DNA of 64,000 nucleotides from the NCBI RefSeq assembly GCF_021869535.1, contig NW_026262604.1:36766001-36830000 (forward strand). The letters run 5' to 3'. Source of the DNA: Mytilus californianus. Lineage: Eukaryota. A program made the translations under genes and the position numbers. Below, one piece after another: positions 696-60,800 of this stretch (the first letter of the stretch is position 1; every line of letters starts with the position of its first letter). Below the pieces are notes generated by a model that was given only the letters and a program-made list of their open reading frames with translations, did no database searches and was not told where the DNA came from.

Positions 696-719
696 AATTG
701 AAACATTATGTGCAAAAGA

Positions 720-1141
720 TTGATTGATTGTTGGTTGCTTAACGTCCAGTGGCAAATATTTCATGCATATTCAGGACGAGAACAAATTAACAATACATAC
801 AACAGGTAGGTTCTGTAATAGAGGCGTTTGGGATTGAGGTCGGAGAAATTTAGACAGCCACGGGAAATGAGGGTATATTGGATAGGGACAGAAATTTAGC
901 CTTGCAACAGGTCACATACGGACCCCTCAAAGAGTTGTTGCAAGGGTTCTTAACGTACAAAGAGCGTGGCACTCTCCTTACACGAGGCATCGGATTAAAT
1001 GTCCCCATTCTGACCGGACGTGGCTGCAAATTTGTACATCCCGCACAGCCAAACGGACGCCCCAATTTAGCAAGGGTTTTACTGCCGGTCGGAGGAAGAC
1101 CAATGGTGACCATACTTCTATTCCCCAGTCACCCTTGGGGG
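720..1141 (-). mobile_element. Meta-domain SINE, full-length copy
   Basis: Near-identical to the other ~420-bp copies. In element orientation: CCCCAAGGGTGACTGGGG head, GGGGACGTTAAATCCGATGCCTCGTGT...GCACGTTAAGAACCC Meta-like core, and GGACGTTAAGCAACCAA(CAAT)n tail. No TSD seen. Confidence 0.85.
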
Positions 1142-13437: not shown

Positions 13438-14119
13438 TTAGCCAATAACTGGTGGATGGATATTTCCATTCGTAGAACCAAAAACTGTCACTGGGTCTTT
13501 GTAAAAATTATTGAGAAAGTCATATTCCGCTGGGTGGCCTTTGTATGGTACCCATATTTCACAAGACTGACTGTTACATATGTTGAGCCATGCATGGATA
13601 TAACATATTCGTGCTGTACCATGTCCACTTTTTATTGGGTTTAATATATGGTCAGTCCAAAAACTGTGATGCGATTCAAGCCCATTTGAGAAAATTCCCG
13701 TTTCTGTTAGCGCAGCAATTTTACCTTTAGAATGCGCTAAATCTGTCAATATTTGCATTTTATGTTGAAAATCTGAGACGGTTGGATTGAATGGGCGGAC
13801 GAAGTAATAATCAAGACCCAGCATATCAACATATTCGTCTCCAGGGTAAAATGTAAGATATTCATCCGCAGTATTGAACGGTTTATCAGGTGAGTAAGCG
13901 AATAAAATATTGTGAACTTGTCTGATATCTCGCAAGTAATGGACTGTGAACTGGAACAGCTGTTTAAAATCGTCTGGCGTATTTTCCGTTTTTGAACTGG
14001 TTCCCCACCAAAACCAACCACCGTTCATTTCGTGATATGGTCTGAAGATAACTGGGATTGTGGAACCATGCGAATCTATCAAGCTCTTTATGAAATCTGC
14101 TACTCCGTCTAGAATTCCC
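13438..14119 (-). CDS. GH26 endo-beta-1,4-mannanase-like gene, last coding exon
   Basis: Open frame with RPYHEMNGGWFWWG (acid/base Glu at 14029-14031), YPGDEYVDMLGLDYY and AALTETG (nucleophile Glu at 13702-13704). Acceptor ttgcag|G in phase 2 matches the upstream donor. Confidence 0.93.
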
Positions 14120-14244
14120 CTGCAACATTTAAAAAGGTAATGTCTAGTAATGCTTTAATATCTTTTGTTTGTATTCTCGTTGTTGATTTGATATTCATCA
14201 TACATAATGTTATTTGTTGTCCAAATTATTTATGAATTTCGATA

Positions 14245-14750
14245 CGACATGACGGAACCATCAAAGAGTTGGTGCAAGATTTTTTTAAGTGCAGAGAACG
14301 TTGCGCTGTCTACACAAGGCATACGACTTAACGTGCAATTCTGATAGGACGCGAGTGCGTACTTGTACAATCGACACATCTAATCGAAAGCCATACTTAA
14401 TCAATTGATTGTTGGTTGATTAACGGTCAGTGGCAAATACTTTATTCATGTTCAGGATGAGACCGAATTCATGATAAATGATGATAAACAGGAAAATTTG
14501 GACTGCCACCGAAAAATGAGGGTAAATAGGATAGGTACAAAATTTAGCATTGTAACATGCCACATACGGACCCCTCAAAAGGGTTCTTAACGTGCAAAGA
14601 GCGTTGCATTCTCTTCTCCTGAGGCACCGGATTTAACATCCCCATTCTGACCGGACAGTCAAATGGATGCCCCCACTTTGGCAATTTGTTTTACTGACGG
14701 TCGTAGGAAGACCATTGGTGACATGTGTTTCTATTCACACAACCTTGGGT
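14245..14750 (-). mobile_element. Older diverged Meta-SINE remnants (two adjacent pieces)
   Basis: Degenerate matches to tail (ttgattgttggttgattaacggtcagtggcaaa), core (gggttcttaacgtgcaaagagcg) and head (aggaagaccattggtgac...ccttggg). Confidence 0.7.
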
Positions 14751-15032
14751 TTATGCCACACTTTAAAATTATCTGCCAGATAGAAGAAGACCTAAGTGAC
14801 AAAACGTTAAAATGTGCAGACTTGATGTAAAGAAAACTAAATTAGATCATTTAAACAACCGCTAGAAAACACATTTACATAAAACATCAATGTTTGAATA
14901 ACAGCACTCCTGAAGGAAACGCTTTAAGATATGTGTTCGCTGTCCTAATCGTAGTATCAACATTTCTGAAAACAAAATCTGGTTTTAGAACTTAAAAGGT
15001 AAATGCTCGGAAATTTAAAGTTACGTACGTAC

Positions 15033-15331
15033 TTAAATTTGGAATGTACACCACCATTTGGAAGTATCCGCCTAATTGAATGTCTTATGTCTTTTCCTGA
15101 CTTGTCATTATTGACCCATGGACTACCATCGGAAACTGGGTTTGAAAGATGCCAAGCAATCGTAATCAGTAGACCCCGGTCAGATGCTTTCTTTATAAGA
15201 TAAGCACTACGTTTTCTGTCATCTGCAGAAAATGTGCCTCCAACGTCAAACCCAATAACTGCTGGATATTCACCCGTAATAGATTTTATATCACTAAGTT
15301 CGTCTTCCGAATTCGAATCCACTTGGCCTGG
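15033..15331 (-). CDS. GH26 gene, internal coding exon
   Basis: PGQVDSNSEDELSDIKSITGEYPAVIGFD...LITIAWHLSNP...GVHSKF(K). Acceptor ttacattgcag|CCA is phase 0 and donor AA|gtacgt is phase 2. Confidence 0.9.
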
Positions 15332-15984
15332 CTGCAATGTAAATAGCAAATCTTCAAATAAAAAAATATTAACAGTCCACCTCCCCTAGGACAATGAGTT
15401 AAAATTACACAGATATAATATACAAAAAAACTTCAACTGCAATTAAAGAAACTAAACGTGGTGGAAAATATTATTTTCTAATACTATTAATTAACATTGC
15501 CTACAACCACACAGAAAACATTGCAAATTATGACGTTTGTCTAATATGAATTTTCAGTCAGACAATGGATAGGTTGAAATCACGTGAAATCAGACGATGA
15601 TTTATACATATATATATAGATGTCTTTAAACAAAACCAAACAGCAAATTTAATTTGTACCATATCGGCTTGAATAGGCATTACTGCGCAAATATAAGATA
15701 GCAATATACGGAAAAGATGATATAAAATCGTGGTACAATGTATAAAAAATATTTCGGTAGAACATATCGAAGTCCTTTATCTAGTCAATGTTGTGTAATC
15801 ATACTGTACTAGTTGTTTATGTTTTTAAAAAAAATAGCTCAGAAATACAGGTAAATTTTGAACTATTGATTTAATCCGAAATCCTGAACCTCATAAAACA
15901 AAACTCACTAAAAGACCAGCGTGGTTACGTATCAAAACATCCTAGTTGTCAAAATGTATACGTGGTAGTTTGAGTAAATATCTA

Positions 15985-24959: not shown

Positions 24960-27900
24960 TTCAAGACAACAATCTCGATAAAACTGACCTCGACGAGGCT
25001 GTCTACATTACACTGCTGAAGTGCATCCTTAAAACGCTCAACGAAGCTGGTGTTGAAAGAATTGTTCTCTGTTACATCCTTCCGAGAAAAGTTCCTAACA
25101 GAACATCGACAGAATCTTAAAACCAACGACGAAATCTCATAAATAATCGCATTCGGTTACTAGCAAAGGAACACCAACGGCAACAGAATATCTACAAATT
25201 TCCGTCGTGGATTACGAATAAACACCTGTTCTGTTCAAATGGCATCCACTTCACTGAGTTTGGTATGGTAAAGTATTACTCCTCCATCAAAGCTGCAATT
25301 CTTAAAACCAGGGCCATTGGGACAAACAGGATGCTTGACAGAGCCAGAAGATGTAACTCTTCTTGATTAAAAAACGGCCCTTTTAAGGGCCACCAATATT
25401 GTTGAAAAAGAATAAAATTGTTGTACATTAGATCAAAATCTCATAAAAGCTAAACCCATTCTTTTTTAAAACACTTCCGTCTTTTATTTGATATCCTAAT
25501 ATTTCTTTATCTATCAAAACGATATTTGCATTTATATAGGAATCTATTACATTAAATTTAGTTTAATTTCTTAAGTAGGTATTTGAAGGTTATCATTGCG
25601 TTTGCAATGGCTGACTCAACATTTTACAGGGAATGCGAATGAGGTCGATGCCCTAGAACAATATATCGACAATCTACATGAAATTCATGTTAGTAACACT
25701 CAGAAAAGTATTAGTTCTGATGTGGATTCCACTAGTTTTAGGTTGGACACTGACAGTGAAGTTGGTATATCCGAAAATGAAGAGACCAACAAGTGGCACA
25801 CACATGACTCAATAAAAGGAAGATTAACATCTCTCCTGGTATTAAGGGTTATAGCGAAAGCATACAGAGTACAGTTTAAAAAGGCTAATACAATAAGTAG
25901 ACTTGATGTAGCCAAAACGGCTAACAAAGCGAAGAAGTTTTTAGCGGGTGTTAATTTTATTTATAAAGAAATTAAACTGGGCCTAAAAAACCCATTTTTA
26001 ATTCAAAAGCGGTTTTATTTTAATATGTCTGGTATTATAATGAATTTGAATAAAATAAAAACAGGAAATTTATTTGTAGACAATGGTCAATTTAATGAGT
26101 TAAAAGTTAGAACAAATTAGAGTGGGGAATCAGGTTAAACATGCCAAATGTTATATCCACCTCTATCGGGTGTATTTATGGATTGATTGTTGGTTGCTTA
26201 ACGTCCAGTGGCAAATATTGCATGCATATCCAGGACGAGAACAAATTAACAATTAATACAATAGGTAGGTTCTGTAATAGGGGCTTTCGGGATTAAGGTC
26301 GGAAAAATTTCGAATGCCACGGGAAATGAGGGTATATTGGATAGGGACAGAAATTTAGCCTTGCAAACAGGTCACCTACGGACCCCTCAATTGATTGATT
26401 GTTGGTTGCTTAACGTCCAGTGGCAAATATTTCATGCATATTCAGGACGAGAACAAGTTCACAATAAATACAATAGGTAGGTTCTGTAATAGATTAAGGG
26501 ATTAAGGTCGGAGAAATTTAGACTGCCACGGGAAATGAGGGTATATTGGATAGGGACAGAAATTTAGCCTTGCAACAGGTCACCTACGGACCCCTCAAAG
26601 AGTTGTTGCAAGGGTTCTTAACGTGCAAAGAGCGTGGCACTCTCTTAACACGAGGCATCGGATTTAACGTCCCCATTCTGACCGGACGTGGCTGCAAATT
26701 TGTACATCCCGCACAGCCAAACGGACGCCCCACTTTAGCAAGGGTTTTACTGCCGGTCGGAGGAAGACCAATGGTGACCATACTTCTATTCCCCAGTCAC
26801 CCTTGGGGGGAATTAAAGAAAGAGAAGGTAGGTTCAACTACCCTAATTTTTTTATAATACTCCTGATCTATTGCGAAGAGTTAATCTGGGTTTCAAAACA
26901 TATAAAGTCAAGTTATTTGTTAAAAAATCTATGCAGTGCTATGAATGTCAATGCTACGGCCTTGTGAAAAATGAATGTACAAATATACACATAAAGAAAT
27001 ATGTGTCAGATGTGGTGGAACACATACCACAACCCACTGTATTACCCCCTCCCCCAAATTGTATAATTGTAATGAGGAACATCCTGAGAGTAATAACACA
27101 GGTTGCGAAAGAAAAGTGCGGTTTTAAGGAAGCACGAACGGAGGTTAAACTTGTAAATAAAGAACAAGAAAGTGCATGCTTAAAACGCTGAACGAAGCTG
27201 GTGTTGAAAAAATTGCTCTCTGTAACATCCTTCCGATAAAAGCCCCTAATAGAACATCGACAGAATCTTATAACCAACGACGTGATCTCATAAAGAGCCG
27301 CATTCGGTTACTGACAAGGGAACACCAACGGCGACAGAATATCTACATCTCAAATTTCGTCGTGTATTACGAATAAATACCTGTTCTGTTCTGTTTGCAT
27401 CCACTTCACTGACTTTGTTATGGTAAAGTATTACTTTGTTATGGTAAAGTATTACTTTGCCATCAAAGCTGCAATTCTTAAAATCAGGGCCATTGGAACA
27501 AGCAGGAGGTTTGGGAGAGCCGGAAAATATAAGTCTCCTTGATTAAAAACGGTCCTTTTAAAGGCCCACAATATTGTTCAAAGGGAATCAAATTGTTGTA
27601 CATTAGAAGTTGGTATGTCCGGAAATAAAGAGGCCAACAAGTGGTACACACAACTACACAGAAATGGAACATTAACATCCCTCCTGGTACAAAGAGTTAT
27701 AGCGAAAGTTTACAGAGTACAGTTAAAAAAGCTCATACTAGGAGACTTGAGGTGGCCAAAACTGCTAACAACGCGAAGTTTTTCTCGGTTGTTACTTGTT
27801 ACTCGGGGAATCAGGGTCAACATGCCAAAAGTTATGTTCATTTCTTTTGGGTGTATTTATAGAACACAAACAGATTTAAGTACAGGACAGGATAAGGAAG

Positions 27901-30900
27901 CCCTATAGGCATATCAGGTTTTCAAAAAAGAAGAAATGATCTTCTAGGAAAAATTAAAGAAAGAGAAGTCTAACATCCTTCCGATAAAAACCCTAACAGA
28001 ACATAGATAGAATCGTATAACCAACGACGAGATCTCATAAATAAGCGCCTTCGGTTACTGGAAAGGGAACACCAACGGCGACAGAATATCTACGAATTTC
28101 GTCATGAATTACGAATCAAGACCTGTTCTGTTCTGATGGCATCCACTTCACTGACATTGGTATGATAAAGTATTACTTTGCCATCAAAGCTGCAATTCTT
28201 AAATAATGGGCTATTGGAGAAAGCAGGAGGCTAGTCAGAGACAGACGATATAAGTCTTCTTGATTGAAAAACGGCCCTTTCAAGGGCCACCAATATTGTT
28301 AAAAAACAATCAAATTGTTGTACATTAGATCAAAATCTTATAAAGCTAAACCCATTCTTTTTTAAAACACTTCCGTCTTTTTGTTTGTTATTCTTATATT
28401 TTTTTATCAATAAAAAATGATATTTGCATTTGTATAGGAATCTATTACATTAAATTTAGTTAAATTTCGTAAGTAGGTATTTGAAGGTAATCATTGAGTT
28501 TGCAATTGCTGACTCAACATTTTACAGGGAATGCGAATGAGGTCGATGCCCTAGAACAATATATCGACAATCTACATCTACAAACGCAAGTTAGTAATAC
28601 TCAGAAAAGTATTAGTTCTGATGTGGATTCCACTAGTTTTAGGTTGGACACTGACAGTGAAGTTGGTATATCCGAAAATGAAGAGGCAAACAAGTGGCAC
28701 ACACAAAAAAGGAAGATAAACATCCCTCCTGGTATTAAGGGTTATAGCGAAAGCATACAGAGTACAGTTAAAAAAGGCTCATACAATAAGTAGACTTGAG
28801 GTAGCCAAAACTGCTAACAAAACCAAGACTTTTTCGCAGGTGTTACTTTTATTTATACAGAAATTGAACTGGGCCTAATAAACCCATTTTTAATTCCAAA
28901 GCGGTTTTTTTTTACTCTGTTGGTATTAAAATGAATCTGAATCAAACTAAAACAGGAAATTTATTTGTAGATTATTTTAACAATGGTCAATTTAATGAGT
29001 TAAAAGCTAGAACAAATTAGAGTGGGGAATCAGGGTAAACATGCCAAATGTTATATCCACTTCTATCGGGTGTATTTATAGAACACAAACAGCTTTAAAT
29101 ACTGAACAGGATTAGTTAGCTTTGAAGGCGTATCAGGTTTTCGAAATAGAAGAGATGAGATGATCTTCTATGATAATTTAAGATGTAAAAGCAGGTACGT
29201 TCATCTATTCTCAAATTGTTTTGTAATACTCCTGATCTACCGTTTTAAAACATATAAAATCAAGTTGTTTGTTAAAATGTCTATTCAGTGCTATGAACGT
29301 CGAGGCTACGGCCTCATGGAAATTGAATGTACAAATAAGGAAATATGTGTCAGATGTGGTGGAACACATACCACAACCCATTGTAATGAGGAACATCCTA
29401 AGAGTAATAACAACATGAACAAAGGTTGCGAAAGAAAAGTGCAGTTTTAAGGACGCACGAATCAGAGGTTCAACTTGAAAATATAGAACAAGAAAGTGCA
29501 TCCTTAAAACGCTCAACGAAGCTGGTGTTGAAAAAATTGTTCTCTGTAACATCCTTCCGAGAAAAAGCCCTAAACAGAACATCAACAGAATCTTATAAAC
29601 AACGACGTAATCTCATAAATAATCGCCTTCGGTAACTGGCAAGGGAACACCAACGGCGTCAGAATATCTACATGTACGAATTTCCGTCGTAGATTACGAA
29701 AAAAACCCTGTTTTGATGTCATCCAATTCACAGACTTTTGGTATGGTAAAGTATTACTCCGTCAACAAAGCTGCAATTCTTTAAACCAGGGGCATTGGGA
29801 CAAGCAGGAGGCTTGGTTGAGCCAGAAGATACAAGTCTTCTTGATTAAAAAACGGTCCTTTTAAGAGCCACCAATATTGTTGAAAAAGAATAAAATTGTT
29901 GTACATTAGATCAAAATCTTATAAAAGCTTATTTAAACACTTCCGTCTTTTATTTGATATCCTAATATTTTTTATTAATAAAAATTGATATTTGCATTTA
30001 TATAGCAATTTACTTTTACAGGAATCTATTACATTTGATTTCTTAAGTAGGTATTTGAAGGTTATCATAGCGTTTGCAATGGCTTACTCAACATTTTTCA
30101 GGGAATGCTGATGAGTTTGATGCCCTAGAACAATATATCGAGAATCTACATGAAACGCATGTTGGTAACACCCAGAAAAGTATTAGTTCTGATGTGGATT
30201 CCACTAGTTTTAAGTTGGACACTGACAGTGAAGTTAGAATTGCCAAAAAATAAAGCGGCCAACAAGTAGCACGCCCAATGACTCAAAAAAGGAAAATTGA
30301 TATCTCTCCTTATATTAGGAGTTATAGCGAAAGCATACAGAGTACAGTTAAAAATGCTCATAATAGAAGTAGACTTGAGGTGGCCAAAACTGCTAACAAA
30401 GCGAAGAAGTTTTTCGAGGGTGTTACTTTTATTTATATAGAAATTAAACTGGACCTAAAAACCCCATTTTTAATTCCAAAGCATTTTAATTAATCTGTTG
30501 GTACATGTACTAAAACAGGAAATTTATTTGTAGATTGTTTTGACAATGCTCAATTTAATGAGTTAAAAGCTAGAACAAATTAGAGTTGGGAATCAGGGTA
30601 AACATGCCAAAATTTATGTCCACTTCTATTGGGTGTATTTATAGAACACAAACAGATTTAAGCACAGCACAGGATTAGGAAGCCCTAGAGGCATATCAGG
30701 TTTTCAAAATAGAAGAGATGATCTATGATAAATTAAAGAAAGAGAAGTTAGGTTCAACTACTCTCATTTTTTTTTATAATACTCGTGATCTACCGCGAAG
30801 AGTTAATCTAGGTTTCAAAACATATAAAGTCAAGTTATTTGATAAAAAGTCTATTCAGTGCCATGAACGTCAAGGCTACGGCCTCATGAAAAATGAATGT

Positions 30901-32305
30901 ACAAATATACACATAAAGAAATATGTGTCAGATGTGGTGGAACACATACCACAACCCATTGTATTACCCCCTCCCCCAAATTGTATAAATTGTCATGAGG
31001 TACATTCTAAGAGTAATAACACAGGTTGCGAAAGAAAAGTGCGGTTTTAAGGAAGCACGCACGGAGGATAAACTTGAAAATAAAGAACAAGAAAGTGCAT
31101 CCTTAAAACGCTCAACGAAGCTGGTGTTGAAAGATGTGTTCTCTGTAACATCCTTCCGATATCTACGAATTTCGTCGTGGATTACGAATAAAGACCTGTT
31201 CTGTTCTGATGGCATCCACTTCACTGACTTTGGTATGGTAAAGTATTACTTTGCCATCAAAGCTGCAATTCATAAAACCAGGGCCATTGGAACAAGCAGG
31301 AAGCTTGGCAGAGCCAGAAAATATAAGTCTTCTTGATTAAAAAACGGCCCTTTTAAGGGAAGGGCCAACAATATTGTTCAAATGGAATCAATAAATATTG
31401 TACATTAGAAGTTGGTATGTCCGAAAATGAAGAGGCCAACAAGTAGCATTCACAACTACACAGAAATTGAAGATTAACATCCCTCCTGGTACAAAGAGTT
31501 ATAGCAAACGTTTACAGAGTACAGTTAAAAAACTCATACAATAAGTAGACTTGAGGTAGCCAAAACTGCTAACAAAGCGAAGAAGTTTTTCGCGGGTGTT
31601 ACTTTTATTTATACAGAAATTAAACTGGGTCTAATAAACCAATTTTTAATTCCAAAGCGTTTTTATTTTAATCTGTTGGTATTATTAAAAATTTAAATAA
31701 AACCAACTAAAACGAAATTTATTTGTAGATTTTTTCACAATGCTCGATTTATTGAGGTAAAAGCTAGAACAAATTAGAGTGGGGAATCAGGGTAAACATG
31801 CCAAAAGTTATGTCCACTTCTATCGGGTGTATTTATAGAACACAAACAGATTTAAGTACAGGACAGGATCAGGAAGCCCTAGAGGCATATCAGGTTTTCA
31901 AAATAAAAGAAGTGATCTTCTATGAAAAATTAAAGAAAGAGAAAGGTACGTTCATCTACTCTCAAATTATTTCATAATACTCCTGATCTACCGCGAAGTG
32001 TTAATCTGGGTTTTAAAACACAAGTTGTTTGTTAAAAAGTCTATTCAGTGCTATGAACGTCAAGGCTACGGCCTCATGAAAAATGAATGTACAAATTGTA
32101 CAAATAAAGAAATATGTGAGATGTTGTGGAACACATACCACAACCCATTGTAATACCCCCCTCCCCCAAATTGTATAAATTGTCATGAGGTACATCCTAA
32201 GAGAAATAACACAGGTTGCGAAAGAAAAATGCGGTTTTAAGGAAGCACGCACGGAGGTTAAACTTGAAAATAAAAAACAAGAAAGTGCATCTTTAAAACG
32301 CTCAA
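24960..32305 (+). repeat. Tandem array (five units of about 0.8-1.6 kb plus the start of a sixth) of SGNH-esterase fragment, spacer and gag-like ORF1 fragment
   Basis: Unit junction AAGTGCAT at 25019, 27170, 29494, 31093 and 32283, with a variant junction near 27975. SGNH: NNLDKTD...IVLCYILPR...DLFCSDGIHF. Gag: KTGNLFVD..., NLGFKTYKVKLF, QCYECQ.YG...C, CVRCGGTH...C, NC..C.E.H...C. All copies are frameshifted. Confidence 0.85.
26183..26810 (-). mobile_element. SINE dimer: full copy (26391-26810) joined to a 5'-truncated copy (26183-26390)
   Basis: Two (CAAT)n tails. No TSD, and about 90 bp of the array unit present in sister units is missing here. Confidence 0.85.
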
Positions 32306-33590: not shown

Positions 33591-33600
33591 GTCTAAGTTG

Positions 33601-33659
33601 GTCTATGGAAAGGTATATACTATGAAACTTAATTTCATAGTATATATCTTTCCATAGAC
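33601..33659. repeat. 59-bp near-perfect palindrome (27-bp arms, CTTAA loop)
   Basis: gtctatggaaaggtatatactatgaaa-cttaa-tttcatagtatatatctttccatagac, with one G/T mismatch. Confidence 0.9.
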
Positions 33660-34248
33660 TATCCAATTTAGCACATATTTACAACTCGAGTAATCTTTTA
33701 ATTGGTCTATTGATAGTTTATTTTGGCTGACTACTTGTATCACAGGTGTTTGTAAAAAGGAGCTCATTAACGAAGTTTTGTAAATCTACTCACTAGTATT
33801 ATTGTAAAATATGTGATTTCAAAAGGCCCTTCACTCCAGAATGAAAAGATGGTAGCTGCTGGTGTAAGTATGTATACTGATATAAAGCGGTGTTTTACTA
33901 TACATGTTCTTCTTACATGGTAAGATGACAAAATAAATTGACCAAAAGCAGGCAATAATTAAATTGCAGTGGAAGCTTTACATGTTTTGAAAACAATTTT
34001 TAATTTCACAGTAAAACTAAAGCTATAATAAATTTGAAACATAGAGATAGTTTGTCCCCATAGATATAGTCTAGCAGATAGCCATTAAAAAGCAACTACC
34101 AATAGATCAGAGATTATAGGTTTTGTGTTGTTTTTTTTTTTTTATTATTTCAAAGTAAAAACTAAAAGATTTATCAGAATATGTTTATGTATATATATAT
34201 AGGTGGCACATTATCTTCGGACATAATCACAGTTTTTCAATTCATGAC

Positions 34249-34313
34249 ATCGTCCTGAACATGCATGAAATATTTGCCACTGGACATTAAGCAACCAATA
34301 ATCAATAAATCAA
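34249..34313 (+). mobile_element. 65-bp SINE 3'-tail-only insertion with 12-bp TSD
   Basis: TSD tcaattcatgac at 34237-34248 and 34314-34325. Confidence 0.8.
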
Positions 34314-34909
34314 TCAATTCATGACGAAATAGATCACCTTCCTTAAGAAAGTTTAAAAAATTATCACCAAGTTGCTTTAATTTTCCTTCACAAGGTTTCA
34401 TAGTACACACTTTTTTGTATACAAAGTTATTGCATGGATGATACATTATTATAATTTTAAGATATCGTTGTACTCTAATCAAGGTATAAAGAGCCATCTG
34501 TATTACCCTTTATTTAAATGATAAAATTTGCAATTGTCAAAAACATTTTTTAGATCCAAAGATTTTAATAGCAGGATATTTAAAAGTCAACGTGAAAACT
34601 AATTACAAACTATTTAATTTAATTTGGAACACAGCATTTTATTTCAAAAAAAATTTTTGTTTTAAATATCTTGATTACGATACAATGAAATCTTACCCTT
34701 GTGGTCATTCATGCGTAGTTACTTAGTACACAGGAAAAGTATGTACTATGAAAATTAGAAGGCAAATATAAGCAATTTGATTGGACGAGAAGTTGTAAGT
34801 ATGTGCTAAGGTTAACATAAATAATAACTTTAAATGAAATTTTAAAAAACCGATTGGAAGAAATTTTCCAAACCTTATGATGAAAGAGTTTCAAGAGGCA
34901 GGTTTTGAC

Positions 34910-35427
34910 GAATATGGTCAATTTGGGTACGCACTAGAATCAGAGTATTCTGAAGAGGAGCTCAAGGAAATGAGTGATGCAGAAGGTTCCCGACATCACG
35001 ATATCAAAATCAAACCTCGCCAGTTTAACACTGATTGATGTTTATGTACTAAATGTATAGTTATGCCATTATTGAAGGAATGTCGATGTTGCCCCGAAAT
35101 TACTTTCTTCGGAATTAATATCGAATTGGGTGAATGTATCAGTGACAATACCGATGTAAGAAGTGTGCCTTTTTCTCCATCTCGAAACAAAATATATAAA
35201 ATTTTAGAGGTACATGCGCCATAGATGGAGAGCTCCATACGTACTAACTCACAGGCAAAGCAGACTAATGGCTTATCGTCAGTTTGTTTGTTATGTCAAA
35301 AAAAGTCAACTACTTGGCAAGAGAAACTTTACCAGCTTGTGTTGTAAACATCATTAGGAAAGAATTTCCGTCATAAGATTGCGTTTACAAAGGCCTTAGA
35401 GAATGTGAAAGTGTATCAACAACATGA
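34910..35427 (+). pseudogene. KolX / P2X7 cytoplasmic-ballast-like gene fragment
   Basis: GYALESEYSEEELKEM; CLCTKCIVMPLLKECRCCPEI...CI; RETLPACVVNIIRKEFPS*DCVYKGL. Contains frameshifts and a deletion. Confidence 0.75.
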
Positions 35428-35505
35428 GAAATTTCTTATACATTGACCCGACAGATCCCAACATTCACGACAGGTGTTATTCAAGGAATGAAGTACCACA
35501 ATTGC

Positions 35506-35513
35506 TATAAAAA
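35506..35513 (+). promoter_or_regulatory. Putative TATA box of the tyrosine-recombinase ORF
   Basis: TATAAAAA 40 nt before the ATG at 35553. Confidence 0.35.
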
Positions 35514-35552
35514 TATGGGCACATTCTAGCCCCTGGACTGATCAATCCCAGA

Positions 35553-38500
35553 ATGCCAACAAACTTAAAAAACAGCTCCTCAGTGGGTCAGATTGGACAG
35601 ACCGACAGAAAAACAAACACTACCTACCCGGCAACGTGTTCCACTTCCATTGCCAATGAGGTCAGCCCTGATACTCGTAATTTACAGGTCATTTTCAATA
35701 AGAGTAAGCTTGATACATGTCGCCAGCTCCCTGCACCTGCTTGGTCAGACATTGACGATGACAATAACATGGCAACTGCCAACAGAAGACAAGGCCAGCT
35801 CATCAGAGCCCTGTCGTATCCTTGCACAGATCTAGACTGACGGATGGGGACATTGCACGTTTATCCTCACCATCACCTAAAAAAACAAGAAAACGTATAA
35901 AACGTATTATAAATTCTGATTCGTCGGAGCTGGCTACTCCAAAGAAACGGCCCCGCAAAGTCCAAGCTTCGGCAATCTAGGTATCGGACATGGAGGACGA
36001 CACAGACGCTGACGAGGACTTTGACACGTCATATCCTTCCAAACGACGAGTTGGAATTCATCCTTATCGTCCCAAGGCAGTATTGTACAGCCATCTCGTG
36101 CTTAATACAATCATAAAGCATGAAGAGTTTTGAAAGAATATGCCAATATGGAGAGATATAAGCAAAAATGAGTACTCTTTGCCGCACTCAAAACGTCTTC
36201 TGTAGGCAATCATAAGAGCCCTAAAACTCTGGTCAAATCCCGACAGACATACCAACAGGGCACTCTTTGACACAATGTGTTCAAAACAGGCTTTTACAGC
36301 ATCCCGTTACAATACAGCCAACGTCCTATCTTTGTTCAATTCCATGCTTTTTTTATAGACTACCAACGAAAGAAGACGGTGACAAAACGGGCAAAAACTA
36401 CTTACGTCAGACAGGTGACAATGGTCCTTTGGCAACTGGAAAAATGTAACCAAACTTTAATCTTTGACCGCACTAATTGGACAAATGTCGCTATTCATCG
36501 GGTGTTTAATGACATACTGAAAACGGGGTATAAGGCCGCTTCACTTGTAGGGTACTGCAAAAATATGATAAAGTTTTGACTTTCTGAACACCTGGATTGA
36601 CGAATTGACAACTGACGACAGGACCCATATTAAGAGGTTAAGAGATGCCATTAACCAACTACAAAGCGGGTATGACGGTATGGAACGGACGGTCAACAGA
36701 CATACGCGGTGCAGTGACATCGCAGCCCAAAACCCTCCTAGTATCAACGAGGTCACAAAGGTTGTTCCACTAGCTGGACAACCTCCACTTACAATCCTGC
36801 ATCGTGCAGAGGACAATGATTATAGAATTACTAGTTCGGACTTAATGTTCCTAAATTCTTATTTCATTGCGAAGCACTGTCTGGAAAGTGCCCAGAGGGT
36901 CAGCATGTTCATCAACATGCGGCTCTCTGAATACTATACCGCCATCCAAACCACCAAGGTCATGCGCAACCTGATGGACGGACATGGGAATGTACTTACC
37001 GATGACGAGGGTAATGTTCAGCAAGAAACCAATTGTCATTTGTATTGCATAACACAAAACAAAGGAATCCTATGAAGGTACTCTGACCATAAGTTAACAC
37101 CAGGTCCAAATAATTGACACCTACATTAAGATAAGGGCTAAGGTACTGACCGATAAGGGAACAACTTCTGAAATGCTTTTGGTAAATTATGAAGGTAATG
37201 AAATAACAAATGGGTCAGACCTTATTGCAAGATTACACAGAAACGTGGGCAAGCCCAAACTCCGGCAATCGAGGTTTCGGACATGGAGGACGACACGGTT
37301 GCTGACGAGGACTTTGACATGTCATGTCCTTCCCAGAGACGAGTTGGAATTCATCCTTATCGTCCCAAGGCAGTATTGTACAGCCATCTCGTGCTTAGTA
37401 CAATCAAAAAGCATGAAGGTTTTGAAAGAATATGCCAATATGGAGAGATATAAGCAAAAAAGAGTACTCTTTGCCGCACTCAAAACGTCTTCTGTAGGCA
37501 ATCACAAGAGCCCTAAAACTCTGGTCCAATCCCCACAGACATACCAACAGGGCACTCTTCGACACAATGTGTTCAAAACAGGCTTTTACAGCATCCCGTT
37601 ACAATACAGCCAACGTCCTATCTTTGTTCAATTCCATGCTTTTTTTTTAATAGACTACCAACGAAAGAAGACGGTGACAAAACGGGCAAAAACTACTTAC
37701 GTCAGACAGGTGACAATGGTCCTTTGGCAACTGGACAAATGTCCCCAAACTATAATCGTTGACCGCACTAATTGGACAAATGTCGCTATTCATCGGTGTT
37801 TAATGACATGCTGAAAACGGGGTATAAGGCCGCTTTACTTGTAGGGTACTGCAAAAATATAAAAAAAGTTTTGACTTTCCGAACACCTGGATTTACGAAT
37901 TGACAACTGACGACAGAGCCTTTATTTAAAGGTTAAGAGATGCCATTAACCAACTACAAAGAGGGTATAACGGTATGAAACGGATGGTCAACAGACATAC
38001 GCGGTGCAGTGACATCGCAGCCCGAAACCCTCCTAGTATCAACGAGGTCACAAAGGTTGTTCCGCTAGCTGAACAACCGGCCCTTACACTGTCTGGAAAG
38101 TGCCCAGAGGGTCAGCATGTTCATCAACATGCGGCTCTCTGAATACTATACCGCCATCCAAACCACCAAGGTCATGCGCAACCTGACGGACGGACCTGGG
38201 AATGTACTTACCGATGACGAGGGTAATGTTCAGCAAGAAACCAATTGTCATTTGTGTAGTCGAACACAAAACAAAGGAGTCCTATGATGGTACTCTGACC
38301 ATTAGTGAACACCAGGTCCAATTATTTGACACCTACATTAAGATAAGGACTAGGGTACTGACCGATAAGGGGAAAACTTCTGAAATGCTTTTGGTAAACT
38401 TTGAAGGTAATGAAATAACAAATGGATCAGACCTTATCGCGAGACTACACAAAAAGTGGGCCTAAGAGTTTCATACAGCGTGACACAAGCGCGGAAGGCC

Positions 38501-38950
38501 AGTCAGACCCTGGCAAACTGTTGTCCTGACAATGTCAAAAAGCCCTGGACTAGGAATTTAGGGCATTCAGAACAAGTTGCCTTTTAGAACTATCGTGGAC
38601 TGAACACTGACAAAGCCGTGGACGCATATTAATTTATGTCCCGGATTGGGTTTTAAATTCTGCCCATCAGAACTAAAAACCAACCACAGCAAATCCCTTA
38701 CTGGAAATTTCACCTGCCAAACATGTCAGATTAACATCCAAAAGGTCTTTAACACCTAAAAGACCGACACCCACAATTCCATTTATCACGTCATCAGCAT
38801 CCTCTGAAGATGTACCACTGATAAAATTACAAGCCAGTACATTTGCAGAGGGCAGCCTGTTAATAGTCAAAAAGAATCTTTGCACCCTATTAAAAAAAGT
38901 CATTCCATCGACCAAATCACAGGATACAAAACATTGATTGAAGAAAAAAA
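35553..38950 (+). pseudogene. Tyrosine recombinase (lambda-integrase fold) gene, internally tandem-duplicated and frameshifted
   Basis: Catalytic motifs in order: CLESAQR (R at 36896 and 38108), EHKT (K at 38268), TQARK (R at 38492), LGHS (H at 38564), NYR (Y at 38591, H-x8-Y spacing). Duplicated block about 35958-37250 / 37251-38461. Confidence 0.75.
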
Positions 38951-39133
38951 TATGACAAGTACCTTACGCAATTGTTTCCTTTTATTTTTTGTTATTTATT
39001 GGAACAGCTATAAATCTAAGGAAAAAAGGCGGAGAATGAACAAACAATTGACTGCATAATCAGAGATATTGGAAAACACTAACTCCCTTAAAATGACAAG
39101 TCCTATTTAGGTCTATTCACTTGATAAAGATAC

Positions 39134-39288
39134 CTTGGTCAGGCTGTAAGTTCGACTCTGGCAACGTGGGCACATCCAGATGCCGCATGCTTTCCCTCAA
39201 GTGAATGAGGTCTCCTATTGTCTCGACTCAAAGTCTGTGGAGATCTTCATTCGTAAGAAAATTGAAGTTATCGTCTTCAATTTTCTCA
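39134..39288 (-). pseudogene. SAM-domain exon, 3' part (split by the LINE insertion)
   Basis: Removing the LINE and one TSD restores ISLYKLDLGTLYQKFLYEKIEDDNFNFLTNEDLHRL*VETIGDLIHLRES, a SAM pattern. Donor G|gtatct at 39134. Confidence 0.7.
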
Positions 39289-39434
39289 CCCCCCGGTGAA
39301 TCGCTATCCTTGCCGTGGTCGGGGGGCTTGCGTGTCTCAGTGACCCCAAGAGCTATGCCAGCTGGAACCTAGTCTCCTGGTAGGGTTACCCATGCTGGAC
39401 AGGTCGATGGGTAGAGGCCAGACTAAAGTGATCC
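39289..39434 (+). ncRNA. Predicted HDV-like self-cleaving ribozyme at the LINE 5' end
   Basis: P1 CCCCCCG(39289-95)/CGGGGGG(39320-26); P2 AUCGC/GUGAU; P3 (C)UAU/GUG(G) with loop CCUUGCC; large P4; J4/2 CUAA (39423-26). Nested double-pseudoknot order as in L1Tc/ingi ribozymes. Folded by eye. Confidence 0.7.
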
Positions 39435-40045
39435 GAACATCGTACGAGTTGCCCGATGTTTTGAATAAAATAGGCTCTCTAACCCGTTGGCCGTGGGTTG
39501 CTACCCGTGTCGGTGGTTGACGAGATTCTTGCGGATAAGGGCTGTAGCCAGACTCCTTACGGTCAGAAAATACCCGGACGGACGAGACTATTGTTCAATA
39601 AGCTGCTTTGGCTCCAATATCATCTAAACGGGAGGTCGGATGGACCCGGTTCGATCAATCGGCTGGTCATGTCGAGCCCTTCAGTTAATTCTCAACAATA
39701 AGCTTTCTTGTAACAATTTTCATTATATACACATGTGTTTTAAATTCAGCTTTTTATATTTCAGAAAACTGAAGAAAGCGATGGCTCATGGGTCAATCAA
39801 GTGGTACGCTTTCTATTTCGCTTGATGGATACGCTCTGCTTGTATACTATTCTTGGAACATCTGGTGCTTTCCGCAGTGGATCTTGGGTGCTAATTTTGG
39901 GGACCAGCTACGTTATACATGTTATACTTGGAGCTCGTTTTCAGCATTATCACTTGACCCCGGCTCGCCACGGAAACACAGCATCGCCCTTGTAGGCACT
40001 CCGAGGTGGGTGGATGACAAGAATGGTGAATCTTTCTCATTTCCT

Positions 40046-41532
40046 ATGGCACAACAAAACCAACCCTCTAAATCAGCTTTAAAATATAAAAAAAAAGTGA
40101 TGATTCAGTTCCCAGATTTATTGTAATAAAAGGAACAGATGAAAAACCAATTTCCAAAATATCTCCCTTTGTGATTCATTAACAAATTCAAAGCGTTGCT
40201 GGTACTGTAAAAAAAGTTTCAAAAATGAGATCAGGCAATTTGTCGGTTGAATGTTCCAACAAAAGTCAATCAACAAATTTGCTTACAATGACAACAATTA
40301 AAAACTTTCCTGTTTCTGCCTCTCCTCACAACAGTTTGAACAGCTGTAAGGGGATCATTCGAGACAGAAGTCAATACCTTGGTGACCTTACCGTGGAAGA
40401 AATCTGTGAGGAACTTTCAAGCCAAGGTGTAACTGATGTTGTTAGATTTCAAATAAAAAAGAATGGAAATATAATTAAATTAAATACATATCTATTGACC
40501 TTTAGAACTCCAACTCCTCCTCCATCTATTACTTTAGGTTGCTTCGGAATCAGAGTTGACAGGTTTATCCCTAACCCAATTCGATGCTTCACTTGTCAAA
40601 AGTTTGGTCATGGAAGCAAACAATGTCGTGGTACGCAGAGATGCTTCAAGTGTTCTGACGAAGGACACGAGGGAACAACCTGTCACTCTGAATCTTCTAA
40701 ATGCGTAAACTGTGGTGAATCCCATTTTTCATCATCTAGGGACTGCCCTGTTTACCTTAAAGAAAAAAATATTATCAAAATTAAAACAGAAAGAAACATC
40801 AGTTACCCAGAAGCTAAACAGATAGCTTCTGTTTCGAATGATCTCCACGTTTCGAACAGACCATCGTACGCCAGCAAAGTTGTCCGTTCATTCAGTCACG
40901 AGCATACACAAACTCGCATGACGTGGCCAATTGATGCTGAGACATTTACAATGCTGCCTGTTGAAACAGAACCTAACGATAAAATATTAATTCCAAGAAA
41001 ACCAACACCTTCTAAAACCAGTACTCAGTCAACTCAATCTTCCTTACAGAGCTCAATGTCATCATCTAAAAATAATCAAAAAAAGAAATCAAATAAAAAA
41101 GATGCAGTTAAATCAGACAGTTGGGGCGGTGAATCTGTCTGGGGTCTTCCCAGTGACATAGATGAATCTTCCATCTCCAATAGTCTTCCTTCATCTGCAT
41201 CTAAAAAGTTATCTTCTACATCCAGTACAAAGTCTACTAGAGCCCCGTCTCCTCTTCGTTCTCCAGAAAAGAAGGATGTCCAAAAGAAGCCAGTAAATAC
41301 ATCCTCTCAGAAGTCTTCTGATTCGAGGTCGCGGGGTAGGGGTCGAGGCGGAGTAAAGCAGCCGCGTGTGGTCCTGGAGATCGACGACTCTCCTCACACA
41401 ACAGATTTTCAACACTTATCGACGAAACTGAAATGGAAATCGAAAGTGTTCCGCCACCCGAAAGATCACAATCCCAGGGTGAGCGAAATAAGAATACTGG
41501 CAAACTCGACAGCATTCGCCTTTCTATTATAA
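40046..41532 (+). pseudogene. LINE ORF1 (pre-C2HC region plus three CCHC zinc knuckles)
   Basis: RSGNLSVEC...; CFTCQKFGHGSKQC; CFKCSDEGHEGTTC; CVNCGESHFSSSRDC. Frameshift and stop near the N-terminus. Confidence 0.88.
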
Positions 41533-41536
41533 AATC

Positions 41537-44500
41537 ATGACTAATATCATCCAATGGAATTGCCGAGGTCTTAAATAAATCTTCTCGAGTTAACGCTTCT
41601 AGTTCAGTCATTTTTACCTACTGCATTTTGTCTTCAAGAAACTCATTTAAAAGAAAGTGACAATGTATCTTTAAAAGGATACAACATGTATAGCACATTT
41701 TCTAAGGTAGACGAACGTGCTGCAGGCGGATCATCAATTTTTGTGAAGGACAACGTCATTCATAGCACAGTCCAACTCACCACGGATCTGCAGGCAGTTG
41801 CAATTCGTTTATCATTAGATAAAACAATTACATTATGTTCTATATATATTCCACCCAATTCAATTATAGATAAAGCTAAACTCAAAACCTCACTGATCAA
41901 TTACCCTCACCATTTATACTTATGGCGACCTCAATGCACACAACCCCTTGTGGGAAAGCAAGTCTCATAATATCAAAGGTAAGATCATTGAGAACTTTGT
42001 CTCTCAAGAAGGATTATGCATTTTTAATGATGGATCTAATACTTATCTTCATCCTGGAAACGGGTCTTATTCTGCTATTGATATCACTATTTGCGATCCC
42101 TCTCTTCTGGATTATTCATGGCGTGTTCATGATGATCTATGTGGAAGTGATCACTTTCCAATAGTACTTGAACATCTTTTTACTTCTGCCCAACAGAGAG
42201 TACCACGTTGGAAACTTGACAAGGCGGACTGGTCCTTGTTTGAGAATCTCTGTCAAGCGGAACTTCAGTCATAGATGTTTGAGACTGTACAAGATCCAAT
42301 TTTAACTTTTAATACAGTTTTAACGTCAATTGTTGACAGAACTATTCCTAAGACCTCGGCAAATCCGAAACATCCCAGCAAACCATGGTTTGATGATGCT
42401 TGTGATCAAGCAATAGGTGACCGTAAAAAATCTGAAAGACGGTTCAATCAACAACCAACGACGGAAAACTTGAGTAATTTCTGTGTTTTTCGCGCTAAGG
42501 CACGGCGGACTTGCAGGCAAGCACGACGAACGTCTTGGAAGAAATTTGTCTCGGAGATAACATCTCGCACTCCGATGACAAAAGTATGGAACATGATACA
42601 AAAGATAAAAGGTAAAAATTCTAAAGCCACAGTTAATCATTTAAAAAATGGCAATGATTTATTAACATCTGAAAAGGATATTGCCAAAAAGCTTGGTGAA
42701 ACTTTTGCGAAATCTTCTTCTTCTAACAACTACAGGGAAGATTTTAAAAAAGTTAAAAAAAATAAAAAAAAATTAAATTAAACTTTTAATAAAAAAATGG
42801 TGAAAATTATAATAAACTCTTTTCTCTTGAAGAACTTAAAACATCTCTGTCAAAAGCCCATGATACAGCTTGTGGGCCTGATAACATTCACTACCAACTG
42901 TTAAAACACTTGCCAGATTCCTCGCTGGAAGCTCTTTTGCAGCTTATGAATAACATCTGGGAATCTGGTGATTTACCATCAATCTGGAAGCTTGCAACCG
43001 TCGTGCCTATTCCAAAACCAAGTAAAGATCACACGGATCCTATTAATTATCGGCCAATTGCTCTTACCAGTTGTGTCTGTAAAACACTAGAACGGATGGT
43101 CAATGATCGCCTTGTTTGGTTCCTGGAATCTAATGGGCTTTTAGCCAATATCCAGTGTGGATTCCGCCAAGGTCGCAGTACTCTTGACTATCTTGTTCGA
43201 TTCGAATCCTTTGTCCGTAATGGTTTTGCGAAAAATGAACATGTAGTGTCGGTCTTTTTCGATCTAGAAAAAGCCTATGATACTGCATGGAAGTATGGTA
43301 TTTTAAAAGATCTCTTTGATATGGGGTAGAAAGGCAATATGCCAAATTTTATTTCGAATTTTCTATCTAACAGACAATTTAATGTTAGAGTAAATTCAAC
43401 CATGTCTGATCTGTATGATCAAGAGATGGGTGTCCCTCAGGGCAGTATTTTATCTGTTACATTATTTAGTCTTAAAATCAACAGCCTTGTTGAAGTTTTA
43501 AAAAGTAATATTGAAGGTTCATTGTATGTTGATGATTTTTTAATATGTTATAGAGGTAAAAATATGAATAACATAGAAAGACAATTACAGTTATGTCTTG
43601 GAAGAATTGAAAAATGGGCCTCGGAAAATGGGTTTAAATTTTCCACTTCAAAAACGGTCGGGATGCATTTTTGTAACAAAAGGAAATTGCATCTTGATCC
43701 AGAAATCTCTTTGTACGGCAACCCAATTAAAATGGTTGATGAAACCAAATTTCTTGGGTTAATTTTCGACAAAAAGTTAACTTTTCTACCCCATATCAAA
43801 ATGTTAAAATCGAAAATTTAAAAGCATTAGATATTTTAAAAGTTGTCGGCAGCACCGACTGGGGTGCTGATCGCAACATTTTACTTAATTTATATAGATC
43901 TCTAGTTAGATCTAAACTAGATTATGGCTCTATAGTGTATGGCTCTGCAAGGAAGTCCTACATACAGATTCTCGATGCTGTGCATCATCAGGGTTTGCGT
44001 CTCTGTCTTGGCGCATTTAAAACCTCACCAGTTGAGAGTCTGTATGTAGAGGCCGATGAGCACTCACTCTCTAACAGACGTTTGAAGCTTGGACTTCAAT
44101 ATGCTGTCAAACTAAAAGCCTACTCAGATAATCCTGCCTACAGCTGTGTTTTTAATCCAATTTATGAAGATATTTTTGCAAAACATGAAAATAAAATTCC
44201 TCCGTTAGGTATACGTTTAAAACCACATTTAGCTTCTTTTGATTTAAAATCTGTTGCTCAAGTTGAAACTTGCAAATGTCTTCCATGGGAACTTCCCAAA
44301 CCAAAAATGATATTTGAACACAATAAAAATAAAACAAATCCTCTTTTAATTCAGCAACACTTTGCTGAAATCAAAGCCAATTATTCAGATTTTTCAACTG
44401 TCTATACTAATGGATCAAAAGATGGCGACAGAGTTGCATCTGCTGCTGTCTTCAGGGACAGAGCTGCAACTCTCCGTTTGCCATCTGATGCATCGATCTT

Positions 44501-45029
44501 TACTGCTGAAGCAGAAGCAATAATTTTGGCTTTGAAATTTATTGCTTCTTCAGATAAATCCAAATTTATTATATGTTCTGATTCACTTTCATGCTTACAA
44601 GCTATACAAAATACTAACTGTGAAATACCATATACCGATTTTAAATCTAATATTAGAGAATATGTTTTTAATATATTGAAAAATGAATGGAGTAAAAAAG
44701 ATGATAATAAATTACATGAAATTAAACCTAATTTAGGTAAACCTCTCAATAATTTTATGTGCAGAAAAAATCAGTGTGTTATTTCTAGATGTCGTATTGG
44801 TCATACTAGAATAACACACGAATATCTTTTAAAAAATGAAGTAGAACCACAATGTATACCTTGTAACTGCAAGTATACTATTAAACATGTTTTAATCAAT
44901 TGTATTGACTTTGCTGATATTCGTAAGAAGCATTTCAATGTCAATAATATGTATGATTTATTTAATAATGTTCCATTTACAAATATTGTTTCATTCTTAA
45001 AAGAAGTTGGAATATATTCTAAAATATAA
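41537..45029 (+). pseudogene. LINE ORF2 (APE, RT, RNase H, CCHC)
   Basis: IIQWNCRGL, CLQETH, IDIT, SDHFPI; YRPIALTS, FFDLEKAYD, GVPQGSILS, LYVDD; VYTNGSK..AEAEAI..CSDSLS; CIPCNCKYTIKHVLINC. Several stops and frameshifts plus a deletion in RNase H. Confidence 0.92.
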
Positions 45030-45271
45030 AAATGTTATTCTATTTAAAACGATTTTAAATTTTATCACGTTATCTTAATGTTCATTTTTATTTGTAAATA
45101 ATCAATTTGCTTTAATCTAGAATTTTAGTTTATTGAAGGGCCTTTTGTCTGATTTTAAGAATATGCTTTAAATTGTAAAAAAAATTCGAATTAGCTCTCG
45201 CCGCGATATAGCCTTGTTGTGCTAATGCGGCGTTAAGCAACCAACAATCAATCATCAATCAATTTTTCTCA

Positions 45272-59414: not shown

Positions 59415-60800
59415 TCAGGAAGTAGGAAATGCATCTGATGAACAATCTATACATGTACCACATCCAATACCAAGTACCTACGTTAAAGCTAGGAGAAAAG
59501 ATGTCAACCAAAAAATATTCATGTGTGCAGAGGACTCACTAAAACGTTACAGAAAAGTGGTGGAGGCTCATTCCAGATACTACAAACACAACCTAATTAT
59601 AGAGAAATGGACAACATGAGGACATATAATTATGACAAGAATGAAATGTGAATCCTCTCACACTTTTCTGTGGTCTTCTTCGCCATACATGCAGAACAAT
59701 GAATACTTGGTGAATAACAGAGTGCAACATGGTCTGATCTGTAGTGGAATGTTGCCATCCCATTATACCAAGTTGTAGATGGTGCTGGAATCGGGAAAAT
59801 TAATAAGGAAAAACGAAATAAGTTCTTCAACTCATATGAAAACCTCATTCAAACAGAATACCACAAGTCTACAACAACAGCCTTGCTTGACGAATCAGCC
59901 TCATATTATGGTGACAAATAAGGAGAAATAGACATTTGAACTGACGCAAGGCATGGCTGGCGTAACAACGCTAAAAATGCAAGTATTGTTGCGATTGGTG
60001 AGAAAACCCACAAAGTTTTATCTTGTCAACATGTAACCAAAGCTGACGATGTTGTGTCCCAAAGACACGAACGTATCGGTACTGATAGGGTGTATACATA
60101 TTTGGCTGAAAAGGAGGTTGCTGTAGGTGTCCATTGCCATGACAAGAATCTATCTATTAACAAATACATTCGTGAAGAAACGGATGCAATTAATCGAATC
60201 GATACATGGCATTGTGTTAAAGCAGTAAACACAGCTCTGAAAAAAGTTGCATCTGTCTCAACTCAATCACTGGGCAATCAGAAATTGTAACAATGATCCA
60301 GAGAAATTAAAGTCAGCAATTCTGAATGTAGTTGACCATTACAAAAACAGACATTTATCTTGTGATCCTTCCTCTAGATGTAAATATGATAAAAATTATG
60401 AACCATCAATAATTGTTTTGACTGATCCAGTGGCTGAAAAACTGTTACTTGGAGTACTTTTAAATTCCAACATTTTTAAATATCTTCAGGATTATGATTT
60501 AGGAAAAGACATTTTATGTTGAAAGTTTCAACAACGTTATAAATATTGATCAGGATAAGCGTATTGCGTTTGGTGACAAACAGTACAATGCACGTTCAAA
60601 CTTGGCAGTTTGTCAATGAAATGAAAATGTTGACAGGGACTTCACTTCTATTTCTAATCCGCGAAATCCTAGAACCCCTAGAAGTGTAAGAGGCAAGAAA
60701 AATTATAAACAGAAAACATTTAAACTTCGAGGAAATATATGGAAAACTTTTGTAAATGTTGAATATTCAAGGAAAAGAAACACTTTACAGGAGGAATTAA
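59415..60800 (+). pseudogene. Kolobok DDE transposase
   Basis: TDARHGWRNNAK, HCHDKN, IDTWHCVK, HYKNRH.SC..SSRC, YVESFNN motifs; stops and an internal deletion. Confidence 0.8.

What the first reader, a model, noticed from the sequence alone, without database searches (positions are those of the whole stretch)
35553..38950. Intronless tyrosine-recombinase gene: remnant of a possible uncharacterised integrative DNA element or endogenous virus
Seen: the R..K..(T)xxR..H..Y catalytic order, a TATA-like box, no introns, no RT or gag nearby (so not DIRS/Ngaro), and convergent or adjacent orphan genes (SAM exon, heptad repeat, ORFs at 46.2-47.4 kb). Established: eukaryotic YR carriers include Cryptons, DIRS-type retroelements and some large DNA viruses. 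Inference: the QR..F.NM..EY / HKT / TxxRK / LGHS..A...Y signature may define a multi-gene YR-mobilised element not well described in molluscs. I could not find its ends.
Basis: partly seen in the sequence, partly recalled or inferred. Interest (0 to 1): 0.7.

Follow-up and report, generated by a model that had tools for sequence, protein, structure and literature searches.

The report
Dead recombinase-methyltransferase transposon gene in mussel
This is a broken, partly duplicated piece of a DNA-recombinase gene in a mussel genome; intact relatives in clams, fish and frogs join that recombinase to a domain resembling a histone-methylating enzyme, so it is likely the remnant of a little-described jumping gene and probably not a virus.

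Summary
The tyrosine recombinase (YR) is real: motifs are at the stated places, and an intact homologue folds like Xer/Cre/lambda integrase. But it is a truncated, stop-ridden fragment (35414-38957) with a 1.3-kb internal duplication. The 'TATA box' lies inside coding sequence, a LINE with gag-like and RT frames starts 0.3 kb away, and the neighbouring 'orphan genes' do not accompany other copies. No viral genes lie near the copies. Best reading: a dead member of a single-gene, Crypton-like YR-SET DNA transposon family. Ends, target sites and transposition were not shown, and most copies here arose by segmental duplication. Ten literature searches found no description, but Repbase CryptonV/H could not be checked. 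This scan noted YR-SET fusions earlier in two other genomes.

The parts
35414..38957 (+). Remnant of a YR-SET family gene, cut at both ends (5' part and the helical/SET part are missing), with frameshifts and stops
   Evidence: 80-86% identical to 9 other loci; similarity starts at 35414 and ends at 38957 while sister copies continue both ways
35472..35540 (+). Tail of the conserved N-terminal region (RCYSRN...YGHILAP); contains the supposed TATA box at 35506
   Evidence: same stretch of a sister copy matches homologue N-termini weakly (hhalign E 6e-4, prob 29%)
35958..37250 (+). Copy A of the internal tandem duplication: acidic linker, core-binding helices, R-I (36890) and K (37053) motifs
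37251..38461 (+). Copy B of the duplication, 93% identical to A, lacking about 80 bases
   Evidence: junction spanned by contigs of 3 of 3 DNA runs laid
38450..38647 (+). C-terminal catalytic part: TQARK (38483), LGHS (38558), NY (38588); two stops inside
34894..35413 (+). Unrelated neighbour: fragment of a P2X7-ballast-like (KolX) gene of Kolobok transposons, abutting the YR remnant
   Evidence: 9 of 9 other copies examined carry no YR DNA; an intact copy hits PF20478 at E 2.5e-10; KolX link from PMC9587614 passages
39288..45230 (+). Unrelated neighbour: non-LTR retrotransposon (three-knuckle ORF1, RT)
   Evidence: copies at 83-99% elsewhere, not in a fixed position to the YR

Best explanation
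The stretch is a broken, end-truncated and partly duplicated copy of a tyrosine-recombinase gene whose intact relatives carry a SETD8-like SET domain in the same protein, and it is likely the dead remnant of a single-gene, Crypton-like DNA transposon. SHOWN: family architecture Cys/His N-terminal region - acidic linker - core-binding and catalytic YR - helical region - SET, about 800-1160 aa; multi-copy in bivalves, fish and frogs; all copies found in this genome are broken. INFERRED from the YR family: an active element of about 4-5 kb would excise as a circle by recombining its two ends and re-integrate at a short matching sequence, leaving no inverted repeats. INFERRED from the SET8 match: the SET domain would methylate H4K20 or a similar lysine near the bound DNA, and Phe at the switch position predicts more than one methyl group, which could steer chromatin state or repair at the insertion site. 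This copy died, lost both ends (its 5' end now abuts a Kolobok fragment) and duplicated 1.3 kb internally.
For: Fold. SET in sister copies of this genome: hhalign prob 98.8, E 5e-17; scallop YR-SET protein hits SET-region frames at two family-1 loci; second copy reaches the SET C-terminal strand. SET in 11 of 49 homologues scanned (10 above the Pfam cut-off; many others are fragments), closest solved relative SETD8. Switch residue F in 9 of 14 SET-bearing rows (two rows are one species). Multi-copy clusters within single species, e.g. 20 members in piranha, one model holding four tandem repeats of the gene. Purifying selection between the window copy and sister copies, dN/dS 0.29-0.47 in four comparisons of 61-150 codons (three other rows were mis-framed and dropped). 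A second YR-SET family has two copies on different chromosome-size contigs that share about 3.1 kb and no flanks. Shared unit of family 1 is about 4-4.5 kb.
Against: No termini, terminal direct repeats, empty site or circle junction were found. Most family-1 copies here lie in segmental duplications (93-99% flanks), so they do not count as transposition events. No intact copy in this genome. Some homologues lack SET even when long (P0079), and the mussel protein has no supported place in the tree. No enzyme activity was tested. Repbase CryptonV/H could not be compared, so the family may already be named.
Confidence: 0.65

Rival explanations
1. The YR-SET gene is the 'captain' of a much larger cargo-carrying element (Starship-like), of which only decayed pieces remain here.
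For: Ends were not found. Several family-1 copies are joined to, or lie 4.7 kb upstream of, a fragment of another uncharacterised ORF. 7 of 10 loci... precisely 8 of 10 family-1 loci lie on small unplaced contigs.
Against: That other ORF occurs at loci with no YR in 20-30 kb. Flanks of independent copies share only common repeats. Frames near the copies match ordinary LINE, LTR, MuDR, THAP or host domains only.
Confidence: 0.13
2. A host multigene family of chromatin proteins derived long ago from a YR element, now spreading by tandem and segmental duplication rather than transposition.
For: Segmental duplication explains most copies here; tandem arrays in piranha; fusions to KRAB and PWWP-type domains in a frog and a fish.
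Against: Catalytic residues are kept across very distant animals; copies are intronless and decay quickly; all copies in this genome are broken; family-2 copies have unrelated flanks.
Confidence: 0.12
3. Integrase of an endogenous DNA virus (nimavirus, nudivirus or adintovirus-like).
For: Nimaviruses use YRs with Zn-finger and SAM-like parts (PMC10871703 passages). Viral YRs appear among fold matches.
Against: Those matches are as distant as phage ones (8-17% identity, best E 4e-4). No relatives in viral contigs for 2 queries, none in PHROGs for 4 proteins, no capsid, polymerase or packaging families in 63 frames scanned. These searches need close relatives or intact frames, so they are weak.
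Confidence: 0.08

Closest known systems
Crypton DNA transposons (CryptonA, I, F, S; Kojima and Jurka 2011, PMC3212892; passages and section 5 read)
   Same: Single YR gene, no RT, no inverted repeats found, ends hard to define, present in animals including molluscs.
   Different: The paper says animal Cryptons have no C-terminal domain; this family has a helical region plus SET. DUF3504 (CryptonA/I) and GCR1_C (CryptonF) were hit by 0 of 49 homologues.
CryptonV (Kapitonov and Jurka 2012, Repbase Reports; seen only as cited in PMC8869645) and Crypton-H (label seen only in search listings)
   Same: YR DNA transposons reported from animals.
   Different: Domain content and sequences not available here; CryptonV is said to target microsatellites, which was not seen at these decayed copies and could not be tested without ends.
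SETD8/KMT5A (H4K20 methyltransferase)
   Same: Best sequence and fold match of the SET part (E 1e-19; TM 0.7); GRG, YHG and NHS motifs mostly kept.
   Different: Fused behind a recombinase, extra CxCH insert, and usually Phe where wild-type SETD8 has Tyr334 (top matches are the Y334F mutant chains).
SETMAR/Metnase (recalled, not tested)
   Same: SET domain and transposase in one protein.
   Different: SETMAR is a single domesticated primate gene with a mariner DDE transposase; here the partner is a YR and the gene is multi-copy in many animal groups.
Starships and nimavirus integrases (PMC10871703, PMC10175614 passages)
   Same: YR-driven eukaryotic elements.
   Different: Large multi-gene elements; DUF3435 not hit by homologues; no cargo or viral genes found here.

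Membership tests
Tyrosine recombinase superfamily | Lambda-integrase fold | tested here: met
   Model of intact homologue P0002: (Xer 4a8e Z 11.6, rmsd 9.2, 221 aligned; 3nkh Z 10.9, rmsd 3.6, 172 aligned)
Tyrosine recombinase superfamily | R-K-(H)xxR-H-Y catalytic set | tested here: met
   33, 37, 38, 37, 36 of 38 rows; first His replaced in all. Present in the window but split by breaks
Crypton (general) | YR is the only mobility gene; no RT in the unit | tested here: met
   Shared unit about 4-4.5 kb holds one gene; RT neighbours differ between copies
Crypton (general) | Defined ends with 4-6 bp direct repeats or none, no TIRs | tested here: inconclusive
   Ends eroded by other repeats and deletions
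Crypton (general) | Dispersed copies at unrelated sites | tested here: inconclusive
   Window copy and two family-2 copies have unrelated flanks; most others are segmental duplicates
CryptonA / CryptonI | DUF3504-type YR, no C-terminal domain | tested here: not met
   0 of 49 homologues hit DUF3504; 11 of 49 have SET
CryptonF | C-terminal GCR1_C domain | tested here: not met
   0 of 49 homologues
CryptonV / CryptonH | Sequence similarity to Repbase families; microsatellite targeting | not testable with these tools
   Repbase not available; review not held; searches gave no domain description
DIRS / Ngaro | gag, RT-RNaseH and YR in one unit with split or inverted repeats | tested here: not met
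   No RT is shared among copies; nearby RTs belong to LINEs that differ by locus
Endogenous large DNA virus | Capsid, polymerase or packaging genes linked to the YR | tested here: inconclusive
   None in 63 frames (mostly 140 aa or more) from flanks and window, but flanks are decayed and Pfam misses many viral genes
SETD8-like methyltransferase | SET fold with SAM-binding motifs | tested here: met
   In homologues and sister copies; absent from the window fragment itself
SETD8-like methyltransferase | H4K20 methylation activity | not testable with these tools
   needs an assay

The most novel reading that the evidence does not exclude
An undescribed, animal-wide group of DNA transposons whose recombinase carries its own H4K20-type methyltransferase with a multi-methyl switch, so the element writes a chromatin mark at the site where it excises or inserts; many genes annotated as 'KMT5A-like' in fish, frogs and bivalves are these transposases.
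Probability: 0.3. Interest if true: 0.8.

Novelty: new variant of a known kind. Interest (0 to 1): 0.52.

Why it matters
This copy is dead and changes nothing for the mussel. The family matters more: if active members exist, a mobile element would carry a histone-methylating domain on its recombinase, a direct way to shape chromatin or repair at its own insertion sites, and a testable one. It would also explain multi-copy 'KMT5A/SET domain-containing' gene models in fish and bivalve annotations as transposon genes.

Tried and rejected
TATA-box promoter and start at 35553: rejected, coding sequence continues upstream in sister copies. Cargo role for the heptad repeat and ORFs at 46-47 kb: rejected. 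Duplication as an assembly error: rejected, junction spanned in 3 of 3 DNA runs from 2 studies. Kolobok-YR composite element: rejected, 0 of 9 other KolX loci hold YR DNA. C2H2-like finger behind SET in one copy: first taken as part of the gene, then found to belong to another ORF joined by deletion. Pfam on window frames and P0002 gave no YR family. Search for longer homologues found none. Viral and metagenome contig scans found no relatives; alignment-based scans could not run. A mixed N-terminal profile found nothing in the fetched DNA. Right end of family 1 is overwritten by a common repeat. Family-2 tail motif occurs exactly at 3 places only and also at a locus with no YR, so it did not define an end. 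Expression: no RNA holder listed; one RNA run, about 6% read, gave 0 reads on 34890-39280, a single sample. A read-based test of the left end gave no result, so that end stays open. Literature: 10 searches listed no paper describing a YR-SET element; I saw passages of PMC13465315, PMC8869645, PMC5753468, PMC9587614, PMC11071296, PMC9945428, PMC10871703, PMC10175614, PMC6431247, PMC4738411 and passages plus section 5 of PMC3212892; no supplements were read, and Repbase entries may bear on novelty.

Full report
1. Observation. The stretch has frameshifts and stops, and 35958-37250 is repeated at 37251-38461 with 93% identity. The duplication is real: contigs of 3 of 3 DNA runs laid (2 studies) span its junction. 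The closest named homologues are Mytilus proteins at 70-76% identity, so the host is taken to be a mussel.

2. It is a tyrosine recombinase. An intact homologue (P0002) found 52 relatives at E up to 0.001. In 38 aligned rows the R, K, R, H and Y positions are held by 33, 37, 38, 37 and 36 rows; the first His of HxxR is never His. The model (pLDDT 87) matches integrases, Xer, Cre and lambda Int in Foldseek and VIA-align (top Z 11.6). Viral YR folds are no closer than phage ones.

3. Limits of the window copy. Nine other loci are 80-86% identical; all are broken. Similarity starts at 35414 and ends at 38957, while sister copies go on both ways. Left of 35414 lies a fragment of a P2X7-ballast-like gene whose other copies carry no YR DNA (0 of 9); PMC9587614 ties such genes to Kolobok transposons (passages). 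The TATA-like box at 35506 is a chance change inside coding sequence. A LINE starts near 39290. DNA at 45-52 kb recurs near other copies only as common repeats.

4. Two sister copies continue past the YR into a helical region and a SET domain; the profile match is strong (prob 98.8, E 5e-17). Eleven of 49 homologues hit Pfam SET, none hit DUF3504 or GCR1_C. Named members come from scallop, clam, oyster, seven fish and five frog genera, often in several copies per species (30 clusters looked up); one is filed under a bacterial bin on a 2.5-kb contig, probably host DNA (inference). The SET part is closest to SETD8/KMT5A by sequence and fold. At the position of SETD8 Tyr334, 9 of 14 SET-bearing rows have Phe, and the top PDB matches are the Y334F mutant; that this switch allows more than one methyl group is recalled knowledge. 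A second, divergent YR-SET family has two broken copies on different large contigs sharing about 3.1 kb.

5. Mobility. For: catalytic residues kept across distant animals, intronless spacing, multi-copy and tandem gene models, unrelated flanks for the window and family-2 copies, and dN/dS 0.29-0.47 between the window copy and its sisters (four comparisons, 61-150 codons; three mis-framed rows dropped), meaning the lineages diverged while the protein still worked. Against: most family-1 copies lie in segmental duplications, and no terminus, direct repeat, empty site or circle was found.

6. Virus or giant element. Sixty-three frames from the flanks and window matched only ordinary transposon or host domains. 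Viral contig, metagenome and PHROG searches were blank. These tests are weak for decayed DNA, so the rivals keep 8% and 13%.

7. Mechanism. Most likely (0.65) a single-gene element of about 4-5 kb that excises as a circle and re-inserts by tyrosine recombination, as proposed for Cryptons (PMC3212892 passages), with a SET domain that would mark chromatin where the protein binds. Architecture and fold are shown or predicted here; transposition and methylation are inferred.

8. Known or new. It works like a Crypton but fails the tests for CryptonA/I and CryptonF; Kojima and Jurka state that animal Cryptons have no C-terminal domain. CryptonV and Crypton-H could not be compared. Ten searches listed no paper on a YR-SET element. 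Two earlier notes of this scan report YR-SET fusions in other genomes; I read them after finding the SET domain and did not check them.

9. Verdict. A dead fragment, so ordinary as a locus, but it points to a widespread YR-SET family that I could not find in print. New variant of a known kind; interest 0.52.

Noticed in passing
G000:C2:54401300-54401760, C1:35296800-35297450, C143:45811200-45824350: The 3' tail of the family-2 YR-SET copies holds five spaced copies of a roughly 20-base motif; the same tail occurs three times at a locus with no YR. Could be recombinase binding sites or an unrelated repeat.
   Followed up: partly
L106:132-2791 (G000:C24 near 15.17 Mb), also L107 and L109: Large ORFs (296 and 571 aa) with no Pfam match and motifs that recall DUF6589/KDZ-type transposases (recalled, untested); a fragment is joined to several YR-SET copies by deletion.
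   Followed up: partly
window 13438-15385, minus strand: Exons of a glycoside hydrolase family 26 (mannanase-like) gene, Pfam E 9e-38.
   Followed up: no
window 25019-32302: Degenerate tandem array of a unit of about 1.2 kb with short coding-like frames.
   Followed up: no
window 33594-34780: Very high-copy repeat with inverted repeats and a 27-bp hairpin at 33601-33659, MITE-like.
   Followed up: no
window 59940-60290: Fragment that looks like a Kolobok-type transposase (motifs recalled; no Pfam match).
   Followed up: no
window 718-1141 and about ten other places: A 420-bp SINE-like repeat at 94-99% identity, also inserted in many YR-SET copies.
   Followed up: no
proteins P0015/P0062 (frog) and P0036/P0101 (fish): YR family members fused to a KRAB box or a PWWP3-type domain, possible domestication events.
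   Followed up: no
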